DNA of 64,000 bases from Naegleria gruberi (taxonomy: Eukaryota): the NCBI GenBank assembly GCA_000004985.1, contig GG738884.1. One strand, given 5' to 3'. The notes below the pieces were generated by a model. The model worked only from the letters and a program-made list of their open reading frames with translations. It did not search any database and had not been told where the DNA came from. The position numbers were made by a program, and so were the translations under genes. Position 1 is the stretch's first letter. Each line of letters begins with the position of its first letter. This document shows, piece by piece, positions 1 to 19,683 of this stretch.

Positions 1-158
1 TATGATGACATTTTCATTATTGTTATTAAATAATATAAATTGAAGAGTTTGTGATTTGATGAAGAGAAAATAATATTTTGATTATAATAAAAGTATTGAA
101 TACATAAGTAACACAACAAGTGAAACAATAAAAATCTTGTTTGATCGGAAAAACCTAC

Positions 159-417
159 AAAGAGCATAGTAATTCTTTGGGCTAAGACTTGATGATCTCA
201 ACTCACTCAACATTTTAGCAGCGTGATCCAAAGCAGCATTTAAATTATTCTTGTCCAAACATCTGATCATTCTGTGAGCCTCAACCTCCACAACTTCCTT
301 GGCTTGATTCAAGTATTGGACTTGTCTCTCTTGAGGACTCATATTTTGAGTTCCTTGTTGAATATATTCCTCTTCATCGTCATCAACAGGAGGTTGATTA
401 TTGTAGTTGGAAGACAT
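159..417 (-). CDS. VPS35: Retromer subunit VPS35, first coding exon (partial; gene continues past the window start)
   Basis: Translation ...HRMIRCLDKNNLNAALDHAAKMLSELRSSSLSPKNYYAL matches the conserved VPS35 N-terminus ([36 protein letters not shown]). A GTAGGT donor follows ...CTT T at about 158. The rest of ORF 82..417 is hydrophobic junk from intron read-through. Confidence 0.6.
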
Positions 418-884
418 TTTTTTTACACTGTGATGATAAGAAGATTATATCCAAGTGGTCTCTAATGTGGTGTGGAAAAATCTTCTTGGTGGGTGGAATC
501 ATTTCTCCTATGAACAAGCCTCCCTTCATTGAATTTTTCAATATACTCTTCCATCACATTCACCATCATGATTGTGGCCTATTATTGTTGACCTGAGCAC
601 TGGAAATTGGCAATGGTTCATTCTGAAGATGATTCACACAAGAATAATATGTTTATTTGGTTATTTGACATTATTGTAGCCATGATAACAGGTAGGCCAT
701 TACAACATTTCATCTTACTCAGTAGTTGTTTTCACATTGATGAAGACAGCATCTCGTAAAAGTGGCTTCATTTGTTATTCATTCCTCTTTCAAAAATATG
801 TTGGTGAGCACTTGTGTTGTAAAGAACATATCTTGATTGTCAACCAAATATTTTAGAAAACTTGTTGAAAAAAAATACGTAAAA

Positions 885-1853
885 ATGGTACGTTATCTGT
901 GGGAATGGATCTTGTCTAACTAAAAACTCTTGCTAATAATTTTATTATTGCTTACTCCTTCTCTCTCTTCAATCACTCTATGATGTTAATATATTATGAT
1001 AACAATTATTATTGATGATGATTATATATAGGCCAGAGGACCAAGAAAGCACACCAAGAGAATTGCTGCTCCAAAGCACTGGATGATGTCCAAGTTGGGT
1101 GGTGTTTATGCACCAAAGCCAAAGCCAGGCGCTCACGCTGCTAGAGAATCATTGCCACTTTTGTTGTTGTTGAGAAACAGACTCAAGTATGCCGCTACTG
1201 CCAAGGAAGTTAACGTTATTTTGAAGCAAAGATTGGTCAAGGTTGACGGTTTGGTTAGAACTGATAAGAGCTATCCATCTGGTTTCAATGATGTCATCTC
1301 CATTGATAAGACCAACGAACACTTCAGACTTTTGTTCGATACCAAGGGTAGATTCGTCATTCACCCAATCTCTGAAAGAGAAGCCAACTATAAGCTCTGT
1401 AAGGTTACCAAGAGAGGTACTGCCACTCAAGGTGTTCCATACATCCAAACCAACGATGGTAGACTCATCAGATTCCCAGACCCATCCATCAAGGTCAATG
1501 ATACCGTTAAGGTTGATATTGAAACTGGTAAGGTCACCAAGTCTGTCCACTTCGAATCTGGAAACTTGTGTATGGTCACTGGTGGTCACAATCAAGGTCG
1601 TATTGGTGAAATCGTCAACAGAGAATTGCACCCTGGTTCCTTCGAAATTGTCCACGTTAAGGATATTGCTGGTAACAACTTCACCACTCGTGCCAACAAT
1701 GTTTTCGTTCTCGGTCAAGGACACTCCTCCATGATCACTCTTCCAAAGGGCAAGGGTTTGAAGTTGAACGTTGTTGAAGACAGAAAGAAGCAAATGAGAT
1801 TGGCCAAGAAGTCCAAGAAGGCTGGTCTTAAGAAGAAGACTGAATCCAAGTAA
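885..1853 (+). CDS. RPS4: 40S ribosomal protein S4 (eS4). Exon 1 is the start codon only (885..887), the intron is 888..1031, and exon 2 is 1032..1853.
   Basis: ORF 1083..1853 is a full eS4 homolog. The upstream frame reads [17 protein letters not shown], the canonical eS4 N-terminus minus its Met. The sequence is ATG|GTACGT at 885..893 and the acceptor is tatatag|GCC at 1031/1032. Codon usage is the high-expression type (TTG, AGA, GGT, AAG). Confidence 0.9.
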
Positions 1854-1966
1854 ATTCACTAAAACTATTTAAAATAAACAAAATTTCAAAAAACAATTAA
1901 ACATTTCTCTTTTTTTGAGTCAATTCTAGTTGCTTCTTGAAGTTGTTTAAGAAATACATCAAAAAA

Positions 1967-4468
1967 ATGGTCACATTGGCTTGCAAATCTTGGCTTTTAC
2001 CATTCATGAATGACAATTTAGAAGCGGCTGTGATGAAGAAACCTCTGGAGGAGTATCCCAAACCATCAAAGCAGAGAAATCTTGTTCAAGTTATAGATCA
2101 CAGTGAAAATTTACATTCCGAATCAGTTTCATTCAATGATCTCTATGTGTTACATCTTTCCGATGGGTTTCATTTTGTGACTGCCAAACTCTCTCCCAAA
2201 TCTATTAAGAGATTGTACAAGTAAGTTGAATTTTCAAGAGTAATCAGAATTAATCCTTTTCATCATTCAATTCCTTTATTAATATACTAAAAATCCATTA
2301 CGTTGTTAATACATTCATTGAAATGCAGACGATTTCCCAACTTTAAACCACTTTCCAAACTCAGAGGAGCCATCATTCGACTCGATGATTATTTCTTTGT
2401 GTTGGGAGGTCCCAATCGATCTCTGTGCTCCATTGTTGTTAACAAGTTTGATTATGTTGGAGCTGCATTGTCCGGAACTTTTCGATCTCCCTCTAACCTT
2501 TCTTCAACTCTCTCAAAACACTTTTCCTTCCAAAATCAACAATTAACCAGACTAAACAATCACCTTATTAATCCAAACAACCTCTTCCTTCAAAACAATC
2601 AAAAAAAACTCCATTCACCTCTTCGACCATTCGTTCCTGGAAGAAACTCAATTCTCAATCATCATACTGCTAGTAATAACAACATTGCTTCTCATTCAAA
2701 CAAAAGTAATTTCAACAACCCTCAAGATTCTCACCAACAAAAACAAACCTTCCCAAGCAATATTGTGAATAATAATACTGCAATTGCTCATCCTTTTCAT
2801 AATAACATCATTCAACCAACAATAACATCCTCATCAACAATGAACCAAGTGCAGAGCAATTTTTTCGCGCCATTTTTGAATGTTTTTAGTTCGACCCAAA
2901 AAACAAACGAAAAAATACCACAACATCAACCCTCTGCACCAATTTTGATAACGGAAGAATTGGACAAGACTAAAAGTGCATCAGGAATAGAGGTATTTCA
3001 TCATAACAAACAAGTAGAATTGTTGCAACAAGAACAACATCAAGGAGAGGAAATCATGGATCAACGAAAAGAATTGACCAAGGAGATTACGGTAAATCAT
3101 CACCATATGGAAGATGCACAATTATCACAAAATTCATTCTTTGTGGAGAATGTTGAAGATGCTTGTGAAATTCCAGCCTCTCAAATGGAACAATTAAAGA
3201 GGATGGAAATACCAGGATTTTCCAATGAAGAATCAATGATGGAAATTCCGATTCCTTCAACTCAACAACTTAAAGCACCAGAACCTTCGAATAGTGTTTC
3301 TTCAATTACTGTTACAGAGTTGGTATCGACATCGGTAACATTGCAAAGTGATAATACCGAAGAGGAATACACTCAAAGAAATGAATCACCATCATATGTG
3401 AGAGTGATATCCACCCCACATAAAAGAAGAACAATTACTGGGATACTGTCTCCAGATCTTGAAATTCCTTCGAGGATACCCCAAAAATTAGAAGTGACTC
3501 CTTCAATAATTCAATCACAAGAAATTACAAGTGACAATGACAGTGATGATGCTATGGAAGATGCTCCAGAAATAATACCCTTCTCCTACAGAAGTGGCTC
3601 TGTATTTTCCCCTTCAAGATATAAGAACATGGCTCCTCCTATAGTCTATCTTCACAGTCAAAATTTCCATACTCAAAAGGCTCCAAGCACTCCTTTACAA
3701 TCCTCTTCAATTAATAATAATAATACTTCTGCTGCCAAAGTTGCTTCAAATCAGAACACATTAGAGATTAAAGAAACACCAGTAAAGGACATTGACGAAT
3801 TTCAAGATCTCATAAATCGAAGGAATAATAGAATAGAAGATGAATCATTTGATTCCTCTGAGGATGAAAATGAAAAGTATGAGGCCTACATGAATAGATC
3901 ACTATTCAGAAATCCTTTACATTTGGAGGAGCATGCCTTCAAGAAGCTTGAACAACGTGCATTACCTCATCATAAAAAAATTATTCAAGCTAGGGAGAGA
4001 AGAAGACAGGAAGAGGATCAAAGGTCAAGAACTATTACAACTATTGAGGTAGAAACTGATATTGAAATAACACCAGACACCATGCTGGAAATACTGAAGG
4101 ATCCACCACTTGAAAGTAGAAAGAGACAAATTATTGAGGAAAAACCAAAAGATAATTTGAAAAAACAAAAAACCAATCCTTCACAATCCTCTCCAAACAC
4201 CACAAGTAGTAGTGAAACAGTTACAAAAAATCCTACACAAAAAGTCCTCTCCTCTTCAAGCACTACTACAAAAATTCAGGATTCTCCAAAACCTGTACAG
4301 ACACAACCAAAACCACAAGAATCTTCAAAAACAGTACTGCAGACACAACCAGTATCACAAGCTCAATTACAACAATCATCCAACCAATCAACTAAACGAA
4401 TCGAAAAGAAACCAACTGAAAAACCTAGGAAAAAAGCAAATTATAGCAATTGGTCTGCCTTTTTGTAA
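1967..4468 (+). CDS. RPA70N-like OB-fold N-terminal domain protein with a ~650-aa N/Q/S-rich disordered tail. Exons are 1967..2220 and 2329..4468.
   Basis: GTAAGT donor at 2221 and acceptor aaatgcag at 2328 restore the frame (AA + A). The spliced N-terminus KPSKQRNLVQVIDHSENL...LYVLHLSDGFHFVTAKLSPKSIKRLYKRFPNFKPLSKLRGAIIRLDDYFFVL resembles the RPA70 N-terminal OB fold. No DBD-A/B/C or zinc ribbon follows, only low-complexity sequence. Confidence 0.5.
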
Positions 4469-4473
4469 AATAT

Positions 4474-5504
4474 TTATTTCTTCTTTTTACTAGATACTGG
4501 CCTAGAGCTTGATTGTTTTTGTTTTTGTTGTGACGTTGTTGCCAATACTTTCTTTCTTCTCTGTTCAAGAATGGTTTCTCTTTGCTTTTCCTTTTCTTCC
4601 TCTTCGTCCAGTTTTGATTTGATTGAGAGAGGAAGCCAATTATCCAATTCTTGAACTAGGAGGGCATCTCGTTTTCGTTCTGCTTCAATTTCTTGCATCT
4701 TTAATCTTTTATAGAACTCATCATTTTCTTCCAGTAAGGTTCTTGATGTTTTGCTAAGAGTTTCACACAATCTGTCTCCACTGTTGTTTTTCAAGTTCAT
4801 GATTGGTGAATTCATTTGAAATCTTATCTAAAGACTTACTTTGGGTGAATATATTTTGGGTGATCCGAGTGAACACTCAGAACAGGAGGGTACATTACAT
4901 TCGATGCAGTGGCCCTACTTAAATCATGTCCAGAAAATACTGATGGCCTCTGATTAATATTATTCTTTTTTCTTCCCATGAATTGTTCCAAAGCTACTTC
5001 AGTTCCTCTTTTTTGTTCAACTCGTTTACCACTCTCATCATAAACCTTCTTTGGTTTTGGAACTCCAAATAAATGGTCTAACTCGGTCTTGTTATTTACA
5101 TGATCTAGTAAACACAATTGAAGATCAAAATTGATCATCATTCTCAATTAAAACCTACCTGGAAACATTGCCTTTCTCTTCACTTTAATTTCCTCAGTTG
5201 TTGGTCCATCAATCATCTTTTTCCTCACACTTTTATATTCTGGTTGTGGTTCACTTAATACTCTTATTTGTGGTTTATATTCAAATTCACTTGTTGGTTC
5301 TTGCAGAGGGTAATGTTTTCGGATACTATCACCATGAGTTATCCTTGGAAATTCACTTGTATAGAATGTTGAAAATCCCTTCCCCAAAGTTTCCGTCGTT
5401 GCTGTTGTATCATTATTCAAATAGGTTCTCTTCTGTCCGTACATCCAATGATTAGGAGAGGATCCGACAATTCCCTCTAATCCACCCGAGAAATTACTAG
5501 TCAT
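4474..5504 (-). CDS. Hypothetical protein with a C-terminal charged coiled-coil (~305 aa). Three exons: 5504..5159, 5104..4840, 4780..4474.
   Basis: Three consecutive minus-strand ORFs join in frame through a 54-nt intron (GTAGGT...ttactag) and a 59-nt intron (GTAAGT...aacaacag). The C-terminal tail is rich in E/K/R heptads. Product not recognised. Confidence 0.45.
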
Positions 5505-6109
5505 GCTTATTTTTTTCTAAGTAAGATTTTAAAAAACTGTAAAATTTTAAATTGGCGCCAAAATTAATGGGTCTTGGTGTTCTTAACGTTTTTACTGAAT
5601 TTATTAGTTTTTTCAATTTTATTTAATAATTCCTTATTTAGTAGCTATGTTATTTTTCAAAATTATTTTTTACTTTCATAACCAGCTACCAATCCAGAAA
5701 CTACTGTCTTGGATGGTTGTGGTTGTGGAGGGCATGCATGAATTTTCAATGTAGTACCAGTAACTGTGTGAGTAGTGACAGGTGGCACACCAGCACTTGT
5801 TGGTGGAATAGAATTATCTTGTTGTTGAGACATTTGGCTTGATGATGTTGAATAGTTTTTTTATGCTTGTTTCTTTGAAGCGAATCCAACTTGAGTGAAA
5901 TAGTCAATTTCGTTCCTTTTTATTCCTTTTGATTTTTGATGCAACCTTTCCTATGGTTGATCATATTTTAGCCGAAACCAATTTATTGTTTTCAACAACC
6001 ATTTTTTATTAAGGAGGAACAATGAACTAAGTAAATTGTTTACAACAACAAAATTAATAAAATTATTACACAAAAAAAAACAACAATATTTTTTCCTTTC
6101 AATTATTCA

Positions 6110-6985
6110 ATGAATCAACTAATACCAATTCCCATTCTTTCATTCAAAAATCTCTCCACAGAACAATTAAAACAATTTTTCCTCGATTCACAGCCTGTGA
6201 TTATTCGAGGAATCTCCGAGAATCAGATTTTCTCTCATGTTATGGAATGGTCATTGGATGATCTTTTGAAAAAGGTTCCAAATGTTGAATTTCCAATTAC
6301 TTATCGTGGTGAGGATAGTCATGTGGTTGGAGCTGAATCTGTTTCCAAGATGAAACTTGGAGAATTTATTGGAAAGTGTAGTGAGATTAAATCAGCAGAG
6401 TTGGAGAAGAAATCTTGTATTCGATACTACTTGTCAGGAAGTAATTTATTGGAAGATCTGAATGGGGATAATGCGAATGATGAACTAGTTCAAATAAGAA
6501 ATGAAACTTTGCAATTTAAACAATTTATTGAGGAAAAATTATCAGAAACTAAACGATTGTCCTCTTTAGGATTTTGGATTGGTTTGGATGGACAGAAAAC
6601 TCATCTCCACTTTGATTGTGTAAATAATCTCATGTTGCAAATTAGAGGAAGAAAGACTTTTCTACTAGTTTCTCCCCATAATCATTTGAAACTTAATTTA
6701 CATTCGTATAAATCGTCGAAAGGTCAAGATATGGATGGAGAAATTTACCGATTCTCTCAGTATGATATCTTCAATACGGAAATTCCAAAAGTTGAAATAT
6801 TTAAAGGAACAATTGAAAGAGGAGATTGCATTTTGATTCCTTTAGGTTGGTTTCATGCAGTTTATTCTGAAGGAGAGGAAACAAATTATGGATCTTACAA
6901 TATTGCCTTAAACGCATTTTGGAATGCAACTGAGAGTGAATGGGATACATGGAAACATTTAAAACTATTCAGAAATAATTATTAA
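6110..6985 (+). CDS. JmjC/cupin-like 2-oxoglutarate/Fe(II) hydroxylase domain protein
   Basis: Single ORF of 291 aa. The metal-binding triad HxD...H is present (GQKTHLHFDCVNNLMLQIRGRKTFLLVSP ... WFHAVYS), as is typical of JmjC/HSPBAP1-like proteins. Confidence 0.75.
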   Translation: MNQLIPIPILSFKNLSTEQLKQFFLDSQPVIIRGISENQIFSHVMEWSLDDLLKKVPNVEFPITYRGEDSHVVGAESVSKMKLGEFIGKCSEIKSAELEKKSCIRYYLSGSNLLEDLNGDNANDELVQIRNETLQFKQFIEEKLSETKRLSSLGFWIGLDGQKTHLHFDCVNNLMLQIRGRKTFLLVSPHNHLKLNLHSYKSSKGQDMDGEIYRFSQYDIFNTEIPKVEIFKGTIERGDCILIPLGWFHAVYSEGEETNYGSYNIALNAFWNATESEWDTWKHLKLFRNNY

Positions 6986-7326
6986 TTTGTTTTTTTGGAC
7001 ATGTGACAGTCTTTAGAATTTAACAGAATGAAATTTCAAATGGGATGGACTATGTATGATTGAATATTCGTGTAATAGTTGTGTCCAATCTTTTGCAGAT
7101 TATGCTTTTGGATTAAGGTGTTGTATAAAAATTCGTCCAGTTTCGAATATACTTTCGCACTGTAAGAAATAATTACATCTTATATAATTGTAAAGGAAAA
7201 GGATTGTAATCAACACAATCCGTAACCTCCAAACTTCCAAAATTCACACAGTGGAACGTCAATGCAAAAACTTTCTAATCACAAATCATTTCGAATAAAA
7301 AAAAAACTCTTTCAACAAGTGAACCG

Positions 7327-8326
7327 ATGAAAAATCGCTCCACAATCCTTCTCACCACTCTTCTGGTTCTCCTTTCTGTTGTTTTTCAACAAGTCAACCT
7401 TGCAACTGGTCAAACATTTAAAAATTGTTATAGACATTCGACAGGTAAACAAATTGAATGGACCATTGATGACACAAACAATGAATTCAGAGCTCTAGTT
7501 ACATTACCTAACGCTAAAGGTTGGGGAGCTTTTGGTTTAAAGACAACTTCTGCTGGTATGACTGGAGCTACCATTGTGATGGCATATTTAGGTTCGAATA
7601 ATGTTACAACGAATATTAATGAAGTAAGTTGATTGTTTGGTTCTCTATCGCATTAACCACCTTGAAAATTCTCCTTTTATTCAACTGCATATTTCACATC
7701 CATGATGGTGATGATAATGATGAATTTTTATTCGAAACTAAAAGTATTATGCTGCTTCGACTACTATTCCAACAAGAATTAAAGCAACAGGCACAACGTC
7801 ATTCACTAACTTTTTCGTTAATGCAGCCATGAATTATACTGGAAATAATTTATATATCCATGTTGTGAGAAGAATGACTCGACCATCCAATGCACCATCA
7901 ACCTATTTCCAATTCACTGGAAAGAGTACAAGTTATGATTTGCTGTTTGCTCTCCACTCTTCCACAAAGCCAAAGAGTGCTGATTCTTTCTTTCAACATT
8001 CTGAAACACTTCACTTGCAACCATTCACATTTTACACACAACAAAATTATTCAATCAATTGTAATGCCACACCAGCAAGGAATATTCCAGTGTTACCTTC
8101 TACCCCACCTCCACCTGCTCCAACTCCTGTTACTAATACTACCAATGGAACAACACCAGTAACATCAACATCAACAACAACAAATTCAACACGTAACAAT
8201 AATACTGCAGTTTCATCATCTTGGAGTATTCACCAAAATGGTGAAAATAGTTTTATTGGAAATTCATTCAAGTGGATTTGCTTTATTGCCTGTTTTGTTA
8301 CCATGTACATTATGAGAAATGATTAG
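7327..8326 (+). CDS. Secreted or GPI-anchored DOMON-domain protein with an S/T/P-rich stalk. Two exons, about 7327..7623 and 7827..8326.
   Basis: There is an N-terminal signal peptide. DOMON-like motifs (EWTIDDTNNEFRALVTLPNAKGWGAFGL ... MTGATIVMAYLG ... LYIHVVRR ... YDLLFALHSS) are followed by a PAPTPVTNTTNGTT stalk and a C-terminal hydrophobic tail. A GTAAGT donor lies at 7624, with a cactaac branch-like element and a cag acceptor ending at 7826. The junction is off by 1 nt (see findings). Confidence 0.55.
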
Positions 8327-8400
8327 ACTATTTTCCTCAAGAAACAATTTTGTAATTTTAGTGAGATTAAAAATAATTCATTCTTTTATTTTCAATGTAA

Positions 8401-11400
8401 TTAATTAGTGCCCCCTCCAACATTATTACTGGAATTATTATTCTTTGATATATATTGATATTCTAATTGGTCACTATCCTTAGATAAATTAGAGTCTGGA
8501 TAACTTTGCTTTTCAGTATTATGAATGTTATGATTACTATTATTATTACTATTTTGTTGAGGGTCATCTTGGCTAACTACATGACCTGCCACCTCGTCTT
8601 CACTTACAACTGCACAAGCATGGTGATGAGCTTTCATCATGTAGGTTGTACATAAGCCTTTTCCTTTCACTTCAACCATTCTTTCTTCAAATTCAAAACC
8701 TAAATCATAAACTCTTTCGTAGGTTGATCGAGAACAGTGGATTCTACCGCCTAAACTTGTACTTTCCATTCTTGAGGCCATATTAATGGTATCACCCCAC
8801 AAATCATAAGCAAACTTCTTGGTACCAATAACACCAGCAACTACACCTCCTGTATTAATACCAACACGAACATTGATTTGATGTCCAAGTGCTTGACGAT
8901 TCTCCAAGTTATAATTTCTCAATACTGCGAAAATATCCATTGCAAATCTGAGAGTTCTTTCAGGGTGATCTGATTGAGTATTACCAATACCACCAACACA
9001 AAAGTAAGCATCACCAATGGTCTTGATCTTTTCCAATTGATACTTGTCTGTGAGTGAGTCAAAACCATTGACCACAGAGTTCAACATCATGACAATTTCA
9101 GTTGGTGTAAGACAACTACTAATAGATGTAAATCCAACCATATCAGAGAAGAAACATGTAATATCATTGAACTTTTCAGCAATGAATGTTTCACCTGATT
9201 TGAGTCTATTGGCAACAGCTTCAGGAAGGATTGAACGAAGGAGATTTTCCGACTTTTTCTTTTCTTCTGCCAACAGGGCATTTTGTTTCTTCTCTGAAGT
9301 GACATCCTTAATAAAGCAAGTGACAACAGGCTTGTTATCAAAGAGTGTTGAGAACAAGTTAATCTTGGCAGGGAATTTGGTATTATTCTTTCTGATACAT
9401 TCCACTTCAATAGTTTCTCCTTGAGCATCAGCATTGGTATTATCCTTTGATGCCTTAATCAAATCATCAATAACTTTACCAAGTGTATCTCTGTTAGAGG
9501 AGTCAAACAAATTGAATAATGGCAAACCAACAAAATCAGTTTGCTTACAGCCAAACATTCTCTGGGCTGCTGGATTAAAAATTTCAATATCACCACGATG
9601 GCTACACAACACGGCACCATCAACAGCAGCATTAAGAATATTCTTCACTTTGGAATCATCATTCTTGGCATTTTCCTTTGTTTCTCTATTCTTGAACATT
9701 GTAATTCTTGAAGGTAATGTATGGTACATGATAAAGTTTCTCATTGTTTCTTCAGAGTCCATCAAATCCAAAGGAATGTAATTGAACATAATTCTCACAT
9801 GGAAAACATTATTCCAATGTGAATCAAATATATTGTAAAGAGCAAAGGAGAATACTAACAACAGCACCGCCCCAACTAGTGAAAAGGCAATAACATATGA
9901 CACTGAAGTTACAGAGAATACTGAAATTAATGTATCCAAGAATACTAACAAACGATCAGTCAGAGCATCTGCCAACACATAGGTTTGCACTTGATTGGAG
10001 AAGAGTTTGAAAGTGGCTGATTTCATTGCAAAAATGTCAGCAGTATTTTCAGATGAAAGTTGAGCATAGATTTCAATCAAATGTTCCAAACCCTTGCATG
10101 AATAAATAGTAGAGTTTGATGTGCAGTTTGTGTCTTGCACCATTGAATCAATCTTTGTAGAGATACCAACACTTGGTAACTTGTTATCTTCAACATTACC
10201 ATAGGCCAGATTATTCCAGCTTGAAACAAGATTTGTTGTGAGTGTTTTCATTTCAGTCTTGTAAGAAATAACATCAGATCCTTCCTTTGATAACTGAGGA
10301 TCATTAATAGCAAGTCCACTTGGTAAGGAAATGTAATTAAATAATTCACCAACGTTGAATGTTGTTCTTTGAATGGATGAGAGAGCTGTTGTTGCTTCCT
10401 TAATATTTAACATGGTACGGTGGGTAGAAATGGTATTGAATGAAGATTCCATGTAGAACATTCCTGAGCACAGAATTGTCACACCCACAATACACAAACC
10501 AATGAGAGCAGCACTCATGTACGGTTTTAGAATTCTCTTTGGTAATTGAATAGAGGCATCATCCACTTCAGATTGCTTTCCTAGGTTATGGTAAATCTTA
10601 CCAATAACATCTTTAGGTACATTCTTTTCCAAGAGTTTAACAAATGTCTTGAGGGAAGAAAAGCTAATTGTTACATAAACCACATAGACAATAGTAAGGA
10701 CACCATAAAGTGAATTGGATGCTAAAAAGTAAATGAAAAAGCTTTGGTCAAGTACTTCCGTTTTTTGTTGAGTTCTGGAAATAAAACTTTGACAAAAAAC
10801 ATCAAAGGCCCCTTGGAATGCATCTTGGTTCAACCACAAGAACATGAATGGATATGAACTGAGCGTGCTATTGTACTCATTTGGTGAGAGGCCTTCAAAA
10901 TATTCTATGTGTTTCATCATTGAGTAGACCATTTGGGAAATCGAGACATTACTTGGGTTAGTATTATTAAAGATACCCAAATCGTTTGGATTTTCAACGT
11001 TTGGAACAACAATTTGCCTGCTAACAGAAATATAATCAGAGTACATCTCTGGTGTGAATAAACCTTTTTGACCCATTACCCTAAGGTCATCAATGAATTG
11101 CTTTGCTTTTGATAACTTTCCTTTCAGCTTGGCAATGAACTCTTCAGTGCTGCTCATATCGAGAGTATGTAATAATTTTAGATTTTCAGATGGGCTGTTC
11201 TTGTAGAGATTCAAGTAGGTTTGTTGTAAACGAATATCTCTCAATGCAAGAAGAGGGACCATTCTTGGCTTGCATGCACTTTGCACTGCCTTAATATCAC
11301 TTAATACCAAGCTTGAAATAACAGAGTCCCATATTATACCTGATGCCAATAGTAAGAAAGAAGCAATAACGAAAATTAAAAAGGAAAGTAGCTGAACATT

Positions 11401-13587
11401 ATGTTGCTGAGGAGTAGCAAGCGATGATCTGAGAATACTTTCTCTCTTCAGTTGAGGATTGTTTTCAACGCCATCCATTCTTTGAGATCCAAGATCAAAT
11501 TCCGAGGCTCTTTCGAATGGTTCATCTGGATCATCAAATTCATTAAAATCAGCTGTTGAAGCAATATTATTACCCTTCTTGATACCAAATGAGAAGGTTT
11601 TACCTCCTGCTTCAGAGAATTTGGTCGAAGATGGAGGTGGATTGTCATCAAATGAAAAGTTTGGAACTATACGATTCTTCTTACTAGCTCCCTTTTTCAA
11701 ATTTGGTCTGAACTTCATTTTGGCTTCTTCATCTTCAATAGCCATAGCTTCTTGGAAGAGCTCTTGAGCAAATTCCTTATTGAATTTGAATTTTTCCACA
11801 TAAGATGCATAGTAACGAAGGACAGTCTTGTTATTTCTATGCTTGGCTATCAAATTTTGGAATGTTGATTCACACTCTGACATTAATTCGGAAGCTCTAG
11901 TGTTGGTTTGCTCAATCTTGTCAAAATTGATGATATCATTGGTCATTTCCTTCCAAAAAGCTCTGTGCAATGCTGCTAATTCGGACTGATTCTTCTCCAT
12001 TCTTTGCAAGAAGAATTTCAATTCGTATGGATTAGAGTTGTCAATCATTTCAAATTCCTTTTCTCTTTCAGAAATTAAGAATTTGTATAAAAAGTTTGGC
12101 TTTGCTTTCAGGGCCTTCTTTAAAAGTGATGAGGCAAAGACTTGAGCATTGACTTCATTCTTCCAATAGTAGGAAACAATTAAACTGCATGTAAGCAAGA
12201 GTCGAGAATCATTAAAGCTCTTTTGTAAAGATGCACCCTTAATAAGACTGAGAGCAATTTCTGGATCTGTAATGTCATCACCCTCTGTTCTATTCTTTGA
12301 TTTAAGAGAAAATTTAAAGAAGAGATTCAACTGTTTCAATCTATTATCTTCTTCAAATTCTTGATAGACAAGCTGAGCCTCCTTTTCCAGCATTTTAAGT
12401 GGAAGCTTTTCAGCATCAGCGTTTCCATCATTGCTTCTTCTGAGAATAGAGGATAATGCCTCAGCACGACGAATACTCACCATGAATCTACCTCTGACCT
12501 TTCTATAAATTACCGTCATGTATATTTCCAATCCTGCCATTCCCACCAAGAAACCAGTCATGATCAAACCCAAGGTAAGACCTGCGCCGAGACCAATACC
12601 CAATATGGAATTATCATCTGAATTGACTATTGAAGTTATTAATGCACCAATGGCTGCTCCCAATCTAGCCCCTGCAACACCAAAAACAAAAGAATTTTCA
12701 GTCTTTCTATAGAATGGTAAAAAGTAAAAAATCAAGACCATGAATACAAGTGTGATAGTGATATGTATCACAGATCTAATGTAGGCATATTGCTGAGGTA
12801 CCACATACATTAGCATTAATTGAAGTGGATTAGCAACAGACAAAAAACCCATTGGTATATTATTATCACCAATAAAGTAGCCTCCCTTAGTTTGTTCGGA
12901 TTCTTGTGAAATCATAATTGATAAAAAGTTCAAAATAAGCATTGGTATAAAGGCTATAATCATCAAGACAATGAGGACAATATTACCTGACATGACACAT
13001 GGTGTGGTATTAAATCTCGAGAGAACATAAATCTGTTCATCATAATTACTAATTGTGTGTAAAGCACTTGTATCACAATCAATAAAGGATGTAAATATAA
13101 AAGTCATTATCATACTAAGAACTTGAATAATATTTCCTAGTGTGGTGGCAGCCTTCTTGTAACGATCTAATTGTTTGCTAGATCGAAAGATTGCATGTAA
13201 GGCAAGGAAGAAACTCACCACTCCACAAGCTATTAACAAAAAGCTTGCTGCTCCAAGTGCTGCAATAGCACCAAAAGGTAAAAGGTGGAATGAAAGTGTT
13301 ATTGGATAATTAATAACTGTGAATAACCATTCTCCATATTCTCCCCAATTATAAGAACCTAGTGTTGGAAGAAATATAGAGACCCAAAATATGTACAAGT
13401 AGTATATTATAGACAGAGTTTTCCTTTTCCATCCATATTGCTTAACTTCGGATGATTCCATCGAAATCACAAACTTTGTAAAGCCCTCCTGTATCTTTAA
13501 CCATACTGATGCATAGAGTGAGGAACCTCCAGATGACTCTGATGAAACATTTGAACCTAGGGCAGAACCTTCATGATTTTGGTCCAT
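8401..13587 (-). CDS. Multi-pass membrane class III adenylyl cyclase with a PAS domain and a single C-terminal cyclase homology domain (1728 aa)
   Basis: Single uninterrupted ORF. There are hydrophobic TM clusters in the N-terminal ~400 aa and again at ~aa 700-1150. A PAS-like segment (AAVDGAVLCSHRGDIEIFNPAAQRMFG...) lies at about nt 9360-9720. The cyclase domain at about nt 8640-9240 carries both metal Asp (FFSDMVGFT, IGDAYF), transition-state N/R (GINTG...ASRMES) and substrate-specifying Lys (EKIKTIGD) and Asp (YDLWGD), giving ATP specificity in a homodimer-type cyclase homology domain. Confidence 0.9.
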   Translation of the reverse strand: MDQNHEGSALGSNVSSESSGGSSLYASVWLKIQEGFTKFVISMESSEVKQYGWKRKTLSIIYYLYIFWVSIFLPTLGSYNWGEYGEWLFTVINYPITLSFHLLPFGAIAALGAASFLLIACGVVSFFLALHAIFRSSKQLDRYKKAATTLGNIIQVLSMIMTFIFTSFIDCDTSALHTISNYDEQIYVLSRFNTTPCVMSGNIVLIVLMIIAFIPMLILNFLSIMISQESEQTKGGYFIGDNNIPMGFLSVANPLQLMLMYVVPQQYAYIRSVIHITITLVFMVLIFYFLPFYRKTENSFVFGVAGARLGAAIGALITSIVNSDDNSILGIGLGAGLTLGLIMTGFLVGMAGLEIYMTVIYRKVRGRFMVSIRRAEALSSILRRSNDGNADAEKLPLKMLEKEAQLVYQEFEEDNRLKQLNLFFKFSLKSKNRTEGDDITDPEIALSLIKGASLQKSFNDSRLLLTCSLIVSYYWKNEVNAQVFASSLLKKALKAKPNFLYKFLISEREKEFEMIDNSNPYELKFFLQRMEKNQSELAALHRAFWKEMTNDIINFDKIEQTNTRASELMSECESTFQNLIAKHRNNKTVLRYYASYVEKFKFNKEFAQELFQEAMAIEDEEAKMKFRPNLKKGASKKNRIVPNFSFDDNPPPSSTKFSEAGGKTFSFGIKKGNNIASTADFNEFDDPDEPFERASEFDLGSQRMDGVENNPQLKRESILRSSLATPQQHNVQLLSFLIFVIASFLLLASGIIWDSVISSLVLSDIKAVQSACKPRMVPLLALRDIRLQQTYLNLYKNSPSENLKLLHTLDMSSTEEFIAKLKGKLSKAKQFIDDLRVMGQKGLFTPEMYSDYISVSRQIVVPNVENPNDLGIFNNTNPSNVSISQMVYSMMKHIEYFEGLSPNEYNSTLSSYPFMFLWLNQDAFQGAFDVFCQSFISRTQQKTEVLDQSFFIYFLASNSLYGVLTIVYVVYVTISFSSLKTFVKLLEKNVPKDVIGKIYHNLGKQSEVDDASIQLPKRILKPYMSAALIGLCIVGVTILCSGMFYMESSFNTISTHRTMLNIKEATTALSSIQRTTFNVGELFNYISLPSGLAINDPQLSKEGSDVISYKTEMKTLTTNLVSSWNNLAYGNVEDNKLPSVGISTKIDSMVQDTNCTSNSTIYSCKGLEHLIEIYAQLSSENTADIFAMKSATFKLFSNQVQTYVLADALTDRLLVFLDTLISVFSVTSVSYVIAFSLVGAVLLLVFSFALYNIFDSHWNNVFHVRIMFNYIPLDLMDSEETMRNFIMYHTLPSRITMFKNRETKENAKNDDSKVKNILNAAVDGAVLCSHRGDIEIFNPAAQRMFGCKQTDFVGLPLFNLFDSSNRDTLGKVIDDLIKASKDNTNADAQGETIEVECIRKNNTKFPAKINLFSTLFDNKPVVTCFIKDVTSEKKQNALLAEEKKKSENLLRSILPEAVANRLKSGETFIAEKFNDITCFFSDMVGFTSISSCLTPTEIVMMLNSVVNGFDSLTDKYQLEKIKTIGDAYFCVGGIGNTQSDHPERTLRFAMDIFAVLRNYNLENRQALGHQINVRVGINTGGVVAGVIGTKKFAYDLWGDTINMASRMESTSLGGRIHCSRSTYERVYDLGFEFEERMVEVKGKGLCTTYMMKAHHHACAVVSEDEVAGHVVSQDDPQQNSNNNSNHNIHNTEKQSYPDSNLSKDSDQLEYQYISKNNNSSNNVGGGTN

Positions 13588-14260: not shown

Positions 14261-15383
14261 ATTACCTTTTGGAAAGGTCTGAATGCAGTTAAGTGTTGGT
14301 TTGGGAAATTTGAAACAACTTTTTCAAATTCCAAGCAACGAACTGTGGCATAATTATGTACTTATGGAGGGGTTAGTTGGGCGAGCGTGGAAGTTTAAGG
14401 AACATTAAGCAGCTTACCAGTCGTAAGTATTGAAAGAAAATTGGAATCAAGCAATACATATTTCTAAAGAAATATGCTTGTATAGCTTGCTTAATTGCAT
14501 TGAGCTATTTAAGAACAGAGTAAGTGCACTTCCCCATACCGGAGTGGTTGAACATTTTCAGTAGTCATTCGCTCAACAAAGCCAATGAGCCAATGAGCAC
14601 TGTAAAGAAACTGAACTAGGTGATGAAAATTCCTTCTTTATACAATACTACGTTTTGGTTTAATCATTTCCGTTTAAAGAGTTTCTTTTTCCAATTGAGT
14701 AATGTCATTTGGAGCAACTTCAAATGATTTGTTACAATACATTTAACTACAGCCAAACCCAATTTGTGAAAGGCTAATAGACCAATCACCTCTTTATTGA
14801 TTTTTTTATCAATTTCCTTTCCTGGTTATCACCTTTTTTGATAGAAGTCAATTGCAAAATCTGATTTCAAAGCCACAAACTGTAATGTTTCCTTAAAGGC
14901 ATCACCTACCATAAGGTTCTCGTTTTGTTATCAGCAATATTCCACAACTGTTCCAATTGTGGAATTATTGCTGGTAACTATCAAGGGTCTTTTCTCGTAC
15001 AGTTTTATTTTGTCATCCGATTACCGAACAGAATCTGTTGCAGCATCCACAATTTAAATCACACCTGAATTTTCACACACAACCCAAGAAATTTGAGAAA
15101 CTCAAAAAAACATTGCCTGCTTCCGTGCACATCCATCATCATTGTTCTTGATTCAGGTTTTCTTCGGAATTAGTTTTCACATCAAAGAGTTGACGTAAAA
15201 ACCACTCTGAGGTATAAACAGTGATGTAACAAGACCAATACAAGAAGAGAGAACTCCATCATAGTATTGATTATATAAAACAAAAGGAATAATAGAACAC
15301 TTTCTATTCTCAATCTAACTCTTAATTGCCACACTCACAGTACTTAGACTTGTAGATATAACTGTTAATTTTCAAACCTCTCT

Positions 15384-17610: not shown

Positions 17611-19683
17611 TTATTGAACAGAACATCCCGTTTGTTGAGATTGGGCAATTTGCCTACAGATTGACAATAAAACTCTTAATCTTTCCTTAGTATTGGTAAT
17701 TGAAAGCAAGTCAAGTTTGAGTTGTGTTGTGAGAGGAAGCATGGCACTCACCCAAAAACTCAACTTTTCTGGTTCGTTTTCCTTTGGGAATGGTCCAATC
17801 TTTTGGAGAATGGCTTGCTTGGTTTCGTCACCAACTTCCATCATGAAAGTCTCAACCATCATGTAGAGTTGGTCATGTAATTGTTGGAGAGACAATCTCT
17901 CTGCTTGACGCCACACATTGGTTTGCAATTCAGCCAATGATGCAAAGGAGGTGAGGGGAATATTAGAACTAGCACCTGAATTGAGTGTTTCAGATTGTTG
18001 CTGCTGGCCATTGTTACCATTATTAGTAGTACTATTATTCGAGGATGAGCTCACAACAGCAGAAATAGTATCCCTATTTCTTTGAGAATTCTCAATGACA
18101 GATATTTCATTTTCAGTCTTATCTTTGAGAATTTGAACTTTGGCACAAATATATCCATCAGTGTCCCACTTTTCCAGAATTTTGAATCGTTCAGTACCAA
18201 CTGTCTCAATGATACTTCTACCATCTGGCAACATTTTAAAGCTCGTAATCTTGGCAATACACCCATACTTGGCAATGTCACCATTTCTATTGGGTCCACA
18301 ACAAACCAATCCAAAGCATTTACTTCCACTCATACATCTTCTCATCATGAGTCGATATCTTGGTTCAAAAATGTGCAATGGTAGTACGGTATGTGGATAG
18401 AGTACAAAGTCTAATACAAAGATTGGAATGTGATTCACATTGAGTTGTCTTGTCCCAACCTCTTCTTCCATTTCCTTCTTTCTCTCTTCGTATTGAGCTT
18501 TACAATACTTTTGACAGAGTTCATTAATAACCACAGTAATTGGATAATCGTATGGCACCACGTGAATGGTCTGTCTACACAGTGGACACTTATCACTATA
18601 ATCGTGCACTCTACAAATGCAACTTCTATCAAACGTATGTCCACAACTCAACGTTACAGGTTCATAGAATACTCTGTAACAAAGTGGACACTCAAGCTCT
18701 TCACAATCCTCGCTGAAATCATAGACAGTATTCGTTCTCTTTCTCTCAGTAACATCTTGATCCAAGGTTGGTTCTTCTTCTTGCTGTTGGAGTTTGGCCA
18801 ATCGTTCCTGTTCCTCCCTGTACATTTTGTCTTGAATTTGTTTTTCAAGTTGAGCTACATATCTATTGGCAGTATCATTTTGTGGATCATTTTGGAAGAT
18901 TGTCTTTAAATCTCTCTCAGCTTCTTGTTCCAGTTGCATTGGTAAAAGCATTTCAACCTTTTTCAAGAGTACACTAATCAATTGTGAACGAACTGCATAA
19001 ATTGTATCATTGATTTGCCTTAATCTTTCCTGATCGTGATAGAAAGTTTGCTGGAAATTCTTAATATCATCAAAGAATTGAAACTTTAGTTTGGATTCTC
19101 GTGTTTTCTGTAATAACTGATCTTGCTGACCCATCAAATCTTCTAAATGAGTTTGAAAATTCTTTGCCTTATTAGCCAACAATGAAAGAGCCTGATGTGG
19201 TTTCCTCTCTCTCACAAAACCATTCACTCGTTCCATAAATTGTTTCATCTCCTCTGGAGTCATTACAAAAAAGAATAGTTCATTATTAGAATTCAACACT
19301 TGCTTTTCTTCTTCTTGTCCTGAATTGTTGTTGTGCTGTTGAATTTTGGCATTGTTTTCATGTTGGGAGAGACATGAATCATGAGAAACTATTGTATCAT
19401 GATTATTATTGTAATGTTGATGAGGATTTACAGAGTGTTGATGATGTTGTTGTTGATTGGTGGAGGAAGTACTATAGGAACAATTGGTTGTTGGTGAATG
19501 TTGTTGTTGTTGTTGTTGGTCTTGTTGATTGGTAGAAGTAGAATTGTTATTAGGAGAGGATGTGGAAGAATAACCTCCATGATAGGCTTGATTATTGTTG
19601 CCATCATTCGGAGAGTTGCAATGTTCTTGTTGCTGATTAAAATTCATCATGCGTTGTTGATACTGCTGATTGTTATTATTCAT
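17611..19683 (-). CDS. LONRF-type E3 ligase: Q/N-rich N-terminus, C3HC4 RING finger and LON N-terminal substrate-binding domain
   Basis: RING finger: ECPLCYRVFYEPVTLSCGHTFDRSCICRVHDYSDKCPLCRQ. LON-N domain: IPIFVLDFVLYPHTVLPLHIFEPRYRLMM...GCIAKITSF...GRSIIETVGTERFKI. The N-terminal 140 aa are poly-Q/N/H/S. Confidence 0.8.
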   Translation of the reverse strand: MNNNNQQYQQRMMNFNQQQEHCNSPNDGNNNQAYHGGYSSTSSPNNNSTSTNQQDQQQQQQHSPTTNCSYSTSSTNQQQHHQHSVNPHQHYNNNHDTIVSHDSCLSQHENNAKIQQHNNNSGQEEEKQVLNSNNELFFFVMTPEEMKQFMERVNGFVRERKPHQALSLLANKAKNFQTHLEDLMGQQDQLLQKTRESKLKFQFFDDIKNFQQTFYHDQERLRQINDTIYAVRSQLISVLLKKVEMLLPMQLEQEAERDLKTIFQNDPQNDTANRYVAQLEKQIQDKMYREEQERLAKLQQQEEEPTLDQDVTERKRTNTVYDFSEDCEELECPLCYRVFYEPVTLSCGHTFDRSCICRVHDYSDKCPLCRQTIHVVPYDYPITVVINELCQKYCKAQYEERKKEMEEEVGTRQLNVNHIPIFVLDFVLYPHTVLPLHIFEPRYRLMMRRCMSGSKCFGLVCCGPNRNGDIAKYGCIAKITSFKMLPDGRSIIETVGTERFKILEKWDTDGYICAKVQILKDKTENEISVIENSQRNRDTISAVVSSSSNNSTTNNGNNGQQQQSETLNSGASSNIPLTSFASLAELQTNVWRQAERLSLQQLHDQLYMMVETFMMEVGDETKQAILQKIGPFPKENEPEKLSFWVSAMLPLTTQLKLDLLSITNTKERLRVLLSICRQIAQSQQTGCSVQ

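What the first reader, a model, noticed from the sequence alone, without database searches (positions are those of the whole stretch)
8401..13587. Giant multi-pass membrane adenylyl cyclase with PAS domain and a single homodimer-type catalytic domain
The 1728-aa protein has two hydrophobic blocks (several TM helices in aa 60-400 and again aa 700-1150) separated by ~300 aa of soluble sequence. A PAS-like module and a single class III cyclase homology domain follow. That domain keeps every catalytic residue in one copy (two metal Asp, Asn/Arg transition-state pair) and the Lys/Asp substrate pair, which implies ATP rather than GTP. It is therefore neither the 12-TM two-domain metazoan or Dictyostelium ACA layout nor a receptor-GC layout. 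It looks like a sensor-coupled homodimeric AC whose input domain is an uncharacterised polytopic membrane module.
Basis: partly seen in the sequence, partly recalled or inferred. Interest (0 to 1): 0.8.

Follow-up and report, generated by a model that had tools for sequence, protein, structure and literature searches.

The report
Naegleria receptor-type adenylyl cyclase gene
This is an intact Naegleria gruberi gene for a very large membrane-bound enzyme predicted to make cAMP, with a 12-helix membrane module and two outward-facing helical-bundle domains as its likely sensor; it belongs to a gene family found so far only in Naegleria and its relatives, and nobody has tested what it senses.

Summary
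Window 8401-13587 (-) is an uninterrupted 1728-aa ORF, identical to an NCBI "predicted protein" of Naegleria gruberi.

The C-terminal part is PAS (aa 1314-1430), a coiled-coil transducer (1434-1468) and one class IIIa cyclase domain (1470-1652). That domain keeps D1482, D1526, R1574, N1602 and R1606, plus the ATP-type pair K1522/D1595. A homodimeric adenylyl cyclase is therefore the best reading.

The membrane part needs correcting:
- Block 1 is an 8-helix bundle (aa 56-383).
- The "soluble linker" is a TPR-like domain that hits Pfam TPR_TmcB, followed by a disordered stretch.
- Block 2 (aa 730-1253) has only four TM helices. They flank two ~180-200-aa ectodomains, each with a conserved Cys pair.

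The gene is not unique. The module occurs in 306 protein clusters, and every named one is heterolobosean. At least 9 N. gruberi proteins carry it, and 25-27 of 30 long members share the architecture.

Verdict: an uncharacterised variant of receptor-type class III cyclases. Interest is moderate.

The parts
8401..13587 (-). Complete single-exon coding sequence, 1728 aa plus the stop codon at 8401-8403
   Evidence: ORF listing. It matches the NCBI N. gruberi predicted protein P0001 at 100% identity over full length. The orthologue shares the same N-terminus.
13423..13587 (-). N-terminal cytosolic tail, aa 1-55, Ser-rich and poorly conserved
   Evidence: A KR-rich stretch (KQYGWKRK) precedes TM1. 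Mean pairwise identity in the family is 17%.
12439..13422 (-). TM block 1, aa 56-383: an eight-helix membrane bundle with a small ecto beta-hairpin (aa 171-189) and the conserved pair C171/C197. The last helix extends into the cytosol.
11713..12420 (-). Cytosolic TPR-like helical domain, aa 390-625. Pfam TPR_TmcB covers aa 523-623.
11467..11697 (-). Disordered acidic/basic linker, aa 631-707
   Evidence: AF2 pLDDT is below 50 for model residues 577-653, which are aa 631-707. Mean pairwise identity is 16%.
10621..11400 (-). Sensor unit 1, aa 730-989: TM9 continues into a long ecto helix, then a helical-bundle ectodomain of about 200 aa with a beta-hairpin, then a long return helix that becomes TM10. 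The near-invariant pair is C772/C932, and NxS/T sites lie at 874, 880 and 906.
   Evidence: Hydropathy and loop statistics. AF2 models. Each Cys is kept in 28 of 30 members.
10525..10620 (-). Short conserved cytosolic loop, aa 990-1021, between TM10 and TM11 (KLLEKNVPKDVIGKIYHNLG motif)
   Evidence: The loop aa 976-1025 has 9 K/R residues, consistent with the positive-inside rule. K992 and G996 are nearly invariant. Pairwise identity is 25%, against 19% for the ectodomains.
9829..10524 (-). Sensor unit 2, aa 1022-1253: TM11 continues into a long ecto helix, then a second helical-bundle ectodomain of about 180 aa, then TM12. The conserved pair is C1155/C1164, and NxS/T sites lie at 1154 and 1158.
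9658..9828 (-). Conserved juxtamembrane segment, aa 1254-1310 (LRxMLNYxP...NExLxNF motif), linking TM12 to PAS
   Evidence: The family consensus and the invariant residues R1265, M1267, N1269 and Y1270. Pairwise identity is 25.5%.
9298..9648 (-). Cytosolic PAS domain, aa 1314-1430
   Evidence: Pfam PAS_9 E 2e-15 and PAS E 5e-6. TIGR00229 E 5.6e-8. The best solved relatives are the FixL and DosP heme-PAS domains at E 1e-6, but no His aligns with the FixL proximal His.
9184..9288 (-). Coiled-coil signalling helix (cyclase transducer element), aa 1434-1468 (KKSENLLRSILPEAVANRLKSGE)
   Evidence: It aligns with the helix that precedes C2 of AC9, residues 1026-1050. There is a weak HNOBA C-terminal match at aa 1434-1462. 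It is the most conserved region of the family at 59%.
8632..9180 (-). Single class III (IIIa-like) cyclase homology domain, aa 1470-1652, with D1482, K1522, D1526, R1574, D1595, N1602 and R1606
   Evidence: Pfam Guanylate_cyc E 3.6e-53. PDB matches are AC9 at E 3e-63 and mycobacterial Cya at E 1e-47.
8404..8631 (-). Low-complexity Asn/Ser/His-rich C-terminal tail, aa 1653-1728
   Evidence: Read directly from the translation. It is not conserved, at 16%.

Best explanation
The gene encodes a receptor-type, homodimeric class IIIa adenylyl cyclase of Naegleria gruberi.

Proposed topology (inferred): the N-terminus is cytosolic. An eight-helix membrane bundle comes first, then a cytosolic TmcB-type TPR domain and a disordered linker. 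Two 'TM, four-helix-bundle ectodomain, TM' units follow, and the chain then re-enters the cytosol as PAS, coiled-coil transducer and cyclase domain.

Proposed mechanism (inferred by analogy with bacterial 4HB/NIT sensors, mycobacterial Rv1625c/Cya and receptor guanylyl cyclases): two chains dimerise through the coiled coil and the cyclase domains. This forms two symmetric active sites, each built from the metal-binding Asp pair of one chain and the Lys/Asp/Asn/Arg of the other. A ligand or physical cue acting on the disulfide-stabilised ectodomains shifts TM12. The conserved juxtamembrane segment and the PAS domain relay or gate that movement, and the coiled coil converts it into a change in cAMP synthesis.

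Shown here: the ORF, the domains, the catalytic and specificity residues, the family and its taxonomic range, and the confident fold predictions.

Inferred, not shown: the membrane orientation, dimerisation, ATP as substrate, and that the ectodomains are the input.
For: - The ORF is intact and identical to a database protein.
- There is a single CHD with the full catalytic set and the Lys/Asp pair. It aligns residue for residue with both AC9 C1 (the metal Asp residues) and C2 (K, D, N, R).
- The same residues are kept in most of 30 family members.
- PAS sits directly upstream of a coiled coil that aligns with the AC9 pre-C2 helix.
- Hydropathy and the positive-inside rule fit an N-in, 8 + 4 TM topology that places TPR, PAS and CHD in the cytosol. 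N-glycosylation sequons and three conserved Cys pairs fall in the predicted outside loops.
- The AF2 models are confident: aa 55-1254 has pLDDT 83.6 and pTM 0.67, and aa 708-1254 has pLDDT 88.9 and pTM 0.84.
- Across the family the conservation gradient runs output (57-59%) > PAS (33%) > cytosolic elements (25%) > ectodomains (19%), as expected for a receptor family with diversified inputs.
- The architecture is conserved in 25-27 of 30 long members from Naegleria, Willaertia and Acrasis.
Against: - Nothing here measures activity, substrate, dimerisation or ligand binding.
- The role of the eight-helix bundle and of the TPR domain is unexplained.
- The PAS domain could be the true input instead.
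- The membrane orientation rests on prediction only.
Confidence: 0.72

Rival explanations
1. The PAS domain is the real sensor, detecting an intracellular small molecule, redox state or gas. The 1250-aa membrane module then serves mainly for localisation, dimerisation or scaffolding, for example partner binding through the TPR domain.
For: PAS lies immediately before the transducer helix and is better conserved (33%) than the ectodomains (19%). Its nearest solved relatives are the ligand-binding PAS domains of FixL and DosP. TPR domains are typical protein-interaction modules.
Against: The FixL proximal His is absent, and I saw no LOV-type Cys motif when reading the sequence. A module of 12 TM helices with two disulfide-bonded ectodomains, kept in at least 25 of 30 long members across several heterolobosean genera, is far more than an anchor needs. 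The two readings are not exclusive, because PAS may integrate a second input.
Confidence: 0.15
2. The eight-helix bundle is a transporter or channel, and the protein is a transport-coupled cyclase, like the K+-channel-fused cyclases of Paramecium and Plasmodium. Flux or membrane potential would set cAMP synthesis.
For: The bundle is polytopic and carries conserved polar and Pro/Gly positions (P291, N298, G330). Foldseek lists glutamate-transporter chains (EAAT1, ASCT2) among its top matches.
Confidence: 0.08
3. The enzyme makes cGMP (or both nucleotides) rather than cAMP, or it is a catalytically dead regulator.
For: Pfam cannot separate AC from GC. UniRef names for relatives read 'Guanylate cyclase domain-containing protein'. 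Exceptions to the specificity rule are known (my own knowledge).
Against: The specificity positions are Lys1522 and Asp1595, not the Glu and Cys of guanylyl cyclases. All metal-binding, phosphate-binding and transition-state residues are intact.
Confidence: 0.05

Closest known systems
Mycobacterial membrane adenylyl cyclases Rv1625c / Cya (class IIIa, 6 TM, one catalytic domain, homodimer)
   Same: Both have a single CHD holding all six canonical residues plus the Lys/Asp pair, a helical transducer directly before the CHD, and a membrane module N-terminal to it. PDB sequence matches are E 1e-45 to 1e-47. A homodimer with two symmetric sites is expected.
   Different: The bacterial enzymes have a compact 6-TM bundle, with no ectodomains, no TPR and no PAS. 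The protein here has 12 TM helices, two ~180-200-aa ectodomains, a cytosolic TPR domain and a PAS domain, and is about four times longer.
Metazoan membrane adenylyl cyclases (AC1-9) and Dictyostelium ACA
   Same: These give the best sequence matches for the catalytic domain and the preceding helix (AC9, E 3e-63). The predicted TM count is also 12.
   Different: Those enzymes are 6TM-C1-6TM-C2 pseudo-heterodimers with one active site. Here there is one CHD that aligns equally well to C1 and C2, and the TM helices are arranged 8 + 4 with large ectodomains.
Dictyostelium TmcB (tiny macrocysts protein B) and Pfam PF25474 TPR_TmcB
   Same: The cytosolic domain at aa 523-623 matches the TmcB TPR model above threshold (E 1e-13; up to 1e-18 in paralogues). 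PMC12750705, citing Muramoto et al. 2005, describes TmcB as regulating the cAMP pathway during sexual development. That fits with the same domain being fused to a cyclase here.
   Different: Only the TPR part could be compared. I could not retrieve a Dictyostelium TmcB sequence, so it is not known whether TmcB shares the two membrane blocks. No amoebozoan protein was among the named hits of the profile search.
Bacterial extracytoplasmic four-helix-bundle sensors (NIT domain of NasR; 4HB_MCP domains of Tsr, PcaY and PilJ; TorS; LytS-N)
   Different: Sequence identity is 2-13% and there is no Pfam hit to NIT or 4HB_MCP. The two bundles here lie in two separate TM-flanked loops of one chain, whereas NIT is one contiguous soluble or periplasmic domain. 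Generic helical bundles score nearly as high as the single 4HB domains.
Prominin / Tweety-homologue (TTYH) pentaspan proteins
   Same: Block 2 shares their topology of two large helical extracellular loops separated by a short cytosolic loop. Prominin-like genes are reported in N. gruberi (PMC10967083; PMC11405016).
Other protist receptor-type cyclases (trypanosomatid receptor ACs, Dictyostelium ACG, Acanthamoeba kinase-flanked cyclases)
   Same: The logic is the same: an extracellular input, membrane passage and a single class III domain acting as a homodimer. The families are also large and lineage-specific (67 in Acanthamoeba, PMC4053784; at least 81 cyclases in Naegleria, PMC9928731).
   Different: Those are single-pass or two-pass proteins with periplasmic-binding-protein-like, CHASE-like or other ectodomains. 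None is described with an 8 + 4 TM module, a TmcB-type TPR domain and PAS.

Membership tests
Class III nucleotidyl cyclase (Pfam PF00211 Guanylate_cyc) | The catalytic domain profile matches above the curated threshold | tested here: met
   180.3 bits against a cut-off of 21.9, E 3.6e-53, covering profile positions 3-182 of 183.
Class III nucleotidyl cyclase (Pfam PF00211 Guanylate_cyc) | Two metal-binding Asp, a phosphate-binding Arg and the transition-state Asn/Arg pair | tested here: met
   D1482, D1526, R1574, N1602 and R1606. They align with the corresponding residues of AC9 C1 and C2 and are conserved in most of the family.
Adenylyl (rather than guanylyl) cyclase | A Lys/Asp substrate-specifying pair in place of Glu/Cys | tested here: met
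   K1522 in KTIGD and D1595 in YDLWGD align with the K and D of AC9 C2. Across the family K is kept in 25 of 26 and D in 22 of 22 aligned members.
Adenylyl (rather than guanylyl) cyclase | Measured conversion of ATP to cAMP | not testable with these tools
   This needs a biochemical assay.
Class IIIa subclass (mammalian ACs, GCs, Rv1625c) | The closest catalytic-domain relatives are IIIa enzymes, and a conserved helical transducer element lies directly N-terminal to the CHD | tested here: met
   The top PDB matches are AC9, AC8, AC5, mycobacterial Cya and NPR-A. Residues 1443-1466 align with the AC9 pre-C2 helix, and there is a weak HNOBA C-terminal match.
Metazoan / ACA-type 12-TM adenylyl cyclase | Two catalytic domains (C1 and C2) in one chain, each following a 6-TM block | tested here: not met
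   There is one CHD only, and the TM helices are arranged 8 + 4.
PAS domain | The PAS profile matches above threshold | tested here: met
   PAS_9 scores 57.4 bits against 27, PAS 26.9 against 22.6 and TIGR00229 33 against 22.9.
Heme-PAS (FixL / DosP type) | A proximal His on the F-alpha helix that ligates heme | tested here: not met
   In the HMMER alignments the FixL 'RSRHD' His falls opposite a gap or a non-His residue, and the query segment NLFDSSNRDTLGKVIDDLIK contains no His.
TmcB family (Dictyostelium tiny macrocysts B) | The TmcB-type TPR domain (Pfam PF25474) | tested here: met
   51.8 bits against a cut-off of 27, E 9.9e-14. It is present in 25 of 30 family members.
TmcB family (Dictyostelium tiny macrocysts B) | Full-length collinearity with TmcB, including the membrane blocks | not tested
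   No TmcB sequence could be retrieved: the word-index searches failed and the AFDB library was unavailable.
NIT / 4HB_MCP extracytoplasmic sensor domains | A four-helix-bundle fold continuous with the flanking TM helices | tested here: met
NIT / 4HB_MCP extracytoplasmic sensor domains | Sequence-profile membership (Pfam NIT, 4HB_MCP and related families) | tested here: not met
Prominin / TTYH | A match to the Prominin or Tweety profile, or a significant structural match to TTYH | tested here: not met

The most novel reading that the evidence does not exclude
The N-terminal 1250 aa would define a new eukaryotic receptor class. Its parts are an eight-helix bundle of unknown fold, a TmcB-type TPR domain, and two extracellular four-helix-bundle sensors arranged like a bacterial NIT domain but split across two TM hairpins. 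In Heterolobosea this receptor is wired directly to cAMP synthesis, and gene duplication has diversified its ectodomains for different environmental ligands. Because the same TPR domain marks Dictyostelium TmcB, a genetically defined but mechanistically unexplained regulator of cAMP signalling, the Naegleria fusion would act as a 'Rosetta stone'. It would indicate that TmcB-type membrane proteins are sensors acting on adenylyl cyclases.
Probability: 0.3. Interest if true: 0.65.

Novelty: new variant of a known kind. Interest (0 to 1): 0.42.

Why it matters
Class III cyclases with a single catalytic domain coupled to a sensor are a well-known design. What is open here is the input module.

If the ectodomains do bind ligands, this family would give free-living and pathogenic Naegleria (N. 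fowleri has members) a set of direct environment-to-cAMP receptors with no animal counterpart. At least 9 N. gruberi proteins carry the module, and there are 306 clusters overall. That bears on how these amoebae decide between feeding, flagellate transformation and encystment.

The fusion also gives a testable hypothesis for Dictyostelium TmcB.

The protein is already in public databases, belongs to a repertoire whose size has been published, and has no experimental data. Its present value is as a well-defined candidate, not as a discovery.

Tried and rejected
1. Word-index homology searches did poorly.
- The 1300-aa query returned only 4 proteins.
- A 4-sequence TPR alignment returned 2 fragments.
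- A 22-sequence TPR alignment returned nothing.
- As a result I never obtained Dictyostelium TmcB.

2. The first profile job failed because the profile exceeded 1200 positions. I trimmed it and reran it.

That search would have tested similarity to TmcB and prominin models.

6. Heme-PAS or LOV reading of the PAS domain. There is no proximal His, and I saw no LOV Cys motif.

7. Internal duplication of the two ectodomain units. hhalign gave probability 46% and E 2e-4, which is inconclusive.

8. A cyclase-less family member (P0004). This is a split gene model, since a PAS ORF follows directly on the contig.

9. A second cyclase in the window. There is none.

10. The literature searches found no paper on this architecture. 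The Naegleria genome paper and Muramoto et al. 2005 are not held in the library.
Full report
**1. Observation**

Window 8401-13587 on the minus strand is one uninterrupted ORF of 1728 codons starting at ATG. The window is about 33-36% G+C throughout. At that composition I estimate that roughly 7% of random codons are stops, so an open frame of this length cannot be chance.

The translation is 100% identical over its full length to a 1728-aa "predicted protein" of Naegleria gruberi held by NCBI, UniRef and EukProt. This identifies the organism and shows that the annotated gene model is this single exon.

The N. lovaniensis orthologue (64% identity over the N-terminal 1300 aa, 1709 aa long) begins with the same MD.NHEGSALG. 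The sequence upstream of the ATG is AT-rich, and no ORF of 100 aa or more is listed between 13588 and at least 15000.

**2. Output half**

- Cyclase domain. Pfam finds one Guanylate_cyc domain at aa 1470-1652 (E 3.6e-53). Against PDB sequences the best relatives are mammalian AC9, AC8 and AC5, then mycobacterial Cya, then receptor guanylyl cyclases, which is the class IIIa group.
- Hybrid of C1 and C2. The one Naegleria domain aligns about equally well with C1 and C2 of AC9. It carries what each of them has lost:
  - the two metal Asp of C1 (D1482 in FFSD, D1526 in KTIGD);
  - the adenine-specifying Lys/Asp of C2 (K1522, D1595);
  - the transition-state Asn/Arg of C2 (N1602, R1606);
  - the phosphate Arg (R1574).
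- Consequence. By the established rules for class III cyclases (my own knowledge of the Tesmer/Sprang and Linder/Schultz work), a chain with all of these must act as a homodimer with two equivalent sites, and Lys/Asp rather than Glu/Cys predicts ATP. The residues are also kept in most of 30 family members.
- Transducer helix. Residues 1434-1468 form the helix that aligns with the AC9 pre-C2 helix. This is the most conserved segment in the family (59% mean pairwise identity), consistent with a cyclase transducer coiled coil.
- PAS domain. Pfam finds PAS_9 at aa 1323-1430 (E 2e-15) and PAS at 1314-1429; TIGR00229 also hits. Its nearest solved relatives are the heme-PAS domains of FixL and DosP, but no His aligns with the FixL proximal His. 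Its ligand, if any, is unknown.

**3. Input half**

Hydropathy, charge, sequon and cysteine statistics and two confident AlphaFold2 models agree on the layout below. The models are aa 55-1254 (pLDDT 83.6, pTM 0.67) and aa 708-1254 (pLDDT 88.9, pTM 0.84).

- aa 1-55: a cytosolic tail.
- aa 56-383: eight TM helices with a small outside beta-hairpin and the conserved pair C171/C197.
- aa 631-707: disordered.
- aa 730-989: TM9 runs straight into a long outside helix, then a helical ectodomain of about 200 aa, then a long return helix that becomes TM10.
- aa 990-1021: a short, conserved, Lys/Arg-rich cytosolic loop.
- aa 1022-1253: the same pattern repeats (TM11, an ectodomain of about 180 aa, TM12).
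- aa 1254-1310: a conserved juxtamembrane motif (LRxMLNYxP...) leads into PAS.

Each ectodomain carries a nearly invariant Cys pair (C772/C932 and C1155/C1164) and NxS/T sequons. Both features fit an extracellular location.

So the "second hydrophobic block" is four TM helices framing two ectodomains, and the protein has 12 predicted TM helices arranged 8 + 4.

**4. What the module resembles**

- By sequence: nothing. There is no Pfam or NCBIfam family other than TPR_TmcB, and no PDB sequence matches.
- By Foldseek: the whole model has no significant match in the PDB (best E 0.09).
- The eight-helix bundle has no counterpart in either search.
- A prominin/TTYH resemblance suggested by the topology was not borne out.
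- Evidence that the two ectodomain units are an internal duplication is inconclusive.

**5. Family and distribution**

An exhaustive profile search with aa 55-1230 found 306 representative clusters at E <= 1e-3, of which 91 are at E <= 1e-30. Many are 1400-1800 aa long and cover the whole module.

Every hit that carries a name is heterolobosean: N. gruberi, N. lovaniensis, N. fowleri, Willaertia magna, Acrasis kona and Pharyngomonas kirbyi. The remaining hits are unnamed metagenome or SRA assemblies. Nine N. gruberi proteins with the module were seen, counting this one and not counting the 367-aa fragment P0005.

Of 30 long members, 27 have PAS, 25 have the cyclase domain and 25 have TPR_TmcB. 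An apparent cyclase-less member is a split gene model.

Conservation falls from the output domains (57-59%) through PAS (33%) and the cytosolic elements (25%) to the ectodomains (19%). This is the pattern of a receptor family that keeps its output and varies its input.

**6. Mechanism**

The best-supported reading is a receptor-type homodimeric adenylyl cyclase. A signal at the ectodomains moves TM12. The juxtamembrane segment and PAS relay or gate that movement, and the coiled coil sets the geometry of the catalytic dimer.

- Shown: the parts, their order, the catalytic competence at residue level, and the folds at prediction level.
- Inferred: orientation, dimerisation, substrate, and the ectodomains as the input.
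- Rivals: PAS as the sole sensor with the membrane part as a scaffold (0.15); a transport-coupled cyclase (0.08); and GTP as substrate or a dead enzyme (0.05).

**7. Relation to what is known, and novelty**

The catalytic logic is that of Rv1625c/Cya and of receptor cyclases generally. It is not the metazoan/ACA two-domain layout, since the one-CHD test is not met for that family. Naegleria's very large cyclase complement is published: at least 81 cyclases in PMC9928731, with a comparable expansion in Acanthamoeba in PMC4053784.

What I could not find described is this particular input module.

One link is worth noting. The TPR domain is the one that defines Dictyostelium TmcB, which PMC12750705, citing Muramoto et al. 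2005, describes as regulating the cAMP pathway in sexual development. A natural fusion of that domain to an adenylyl cyclase fits with TmcB-type proteins acting on cAMP synthesis. I could not retrieve TmcB to test whether the similarity extends beyond the TPR part.

**8. Verdict**

The protein is an uncharacterised variant of a known kind, one member of a family found so far only in Heterolobosea, and already present (unannotated) in public databases.

- Interest: 0.42.
- Most novel reading not excluded: a new eukaryotic receptor class with NIT-like split ectodomains that also explains TmcB. I give it probability about 0.3 and interest 0.65 if true.

Noticed in passing
window 7327-7632 (+) and 7829-8326 (+): Two adjacent same-strand ORFs. 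The first has a signal-peptide-like start and sub-threshold DOMON / cellobiose-dehydrogenase cytochrome-domain hits (E 1.5e-4 and 4.5e-4, both below the Pfam cut-offs). The second is Thr/Pro/Asn-rich and ends in a hydrophobic segment. This is probably one intron-split gene for a DOMON-type surface protein. It ends about 75 bp from the cyclase stop codon and is convergent with it.
   Followed up: partly
window 6110-6985 (+): A 291-aa ORF with a Cupin_8 / JmjC-like domain (E 9e-28).
   Followed up: partly
window 17611-19683 (-): A 690-aa ORF combining a RING / U-box zinc finger (aa 327-374) with a LON substrate-binding domain (aa 419-675, E 2e-34). This is a LONRF-like E3 ligase architecture.
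   Followed up: partly
window 13588 to about 15383: The roughly 1.8 kb upstream of the cyclase start codon shows no ORF of 100 aa or more up to position 15000, and none of 250 aa or more before 15384. This looks like a long gap for a compact protist genome. It could hold a promoter or UTR, a small or intron-rich gene, or a non-coding RNA.
   Followed up: no
L001 (Logan SRR29240419 contig), 1-11077: The family member P0004 sits next to a TrkH-family cation transporter gene and another Guanylate_cyc gene. Its own gene model is split from a PAS-encoding ORF that follows at 10136-10585. The source organism of this assembly was not identified.
   Followed up: partly
protein cluster of P0119 (N. fowleri FDP41_007269 / 007270 and CAG4708700.1): The N. 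fowleri sequences in this 90%-identity cluster are a 1139-aa cyclase protein (P0119, KAF0973882.1), a 481-aa protein named 'START domain-containing' (P0162, KAF0973883.1) and a single 1820-aa product (P0163, CAG4708700.1). This suggests two alternative gene models of one locus, and that some family members carry an extra START lipid-binding domain.
   Followed up: no
P0092 (N. gruberi NAEGRDRAFT_60042, 2426 aa): A much longer N. gruberi protein matches the family profile in three stretches, the best covering profile positions 4-140. Its remaining architecture was not examined separately.
   Followed up: no
tool behaviour: The word-index protein search, given TPR-region alignments, did not return even the close paralogues that the exhaustive search found. 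Negative results from that tool for this family should not be read as absence.
   Followed up: yes
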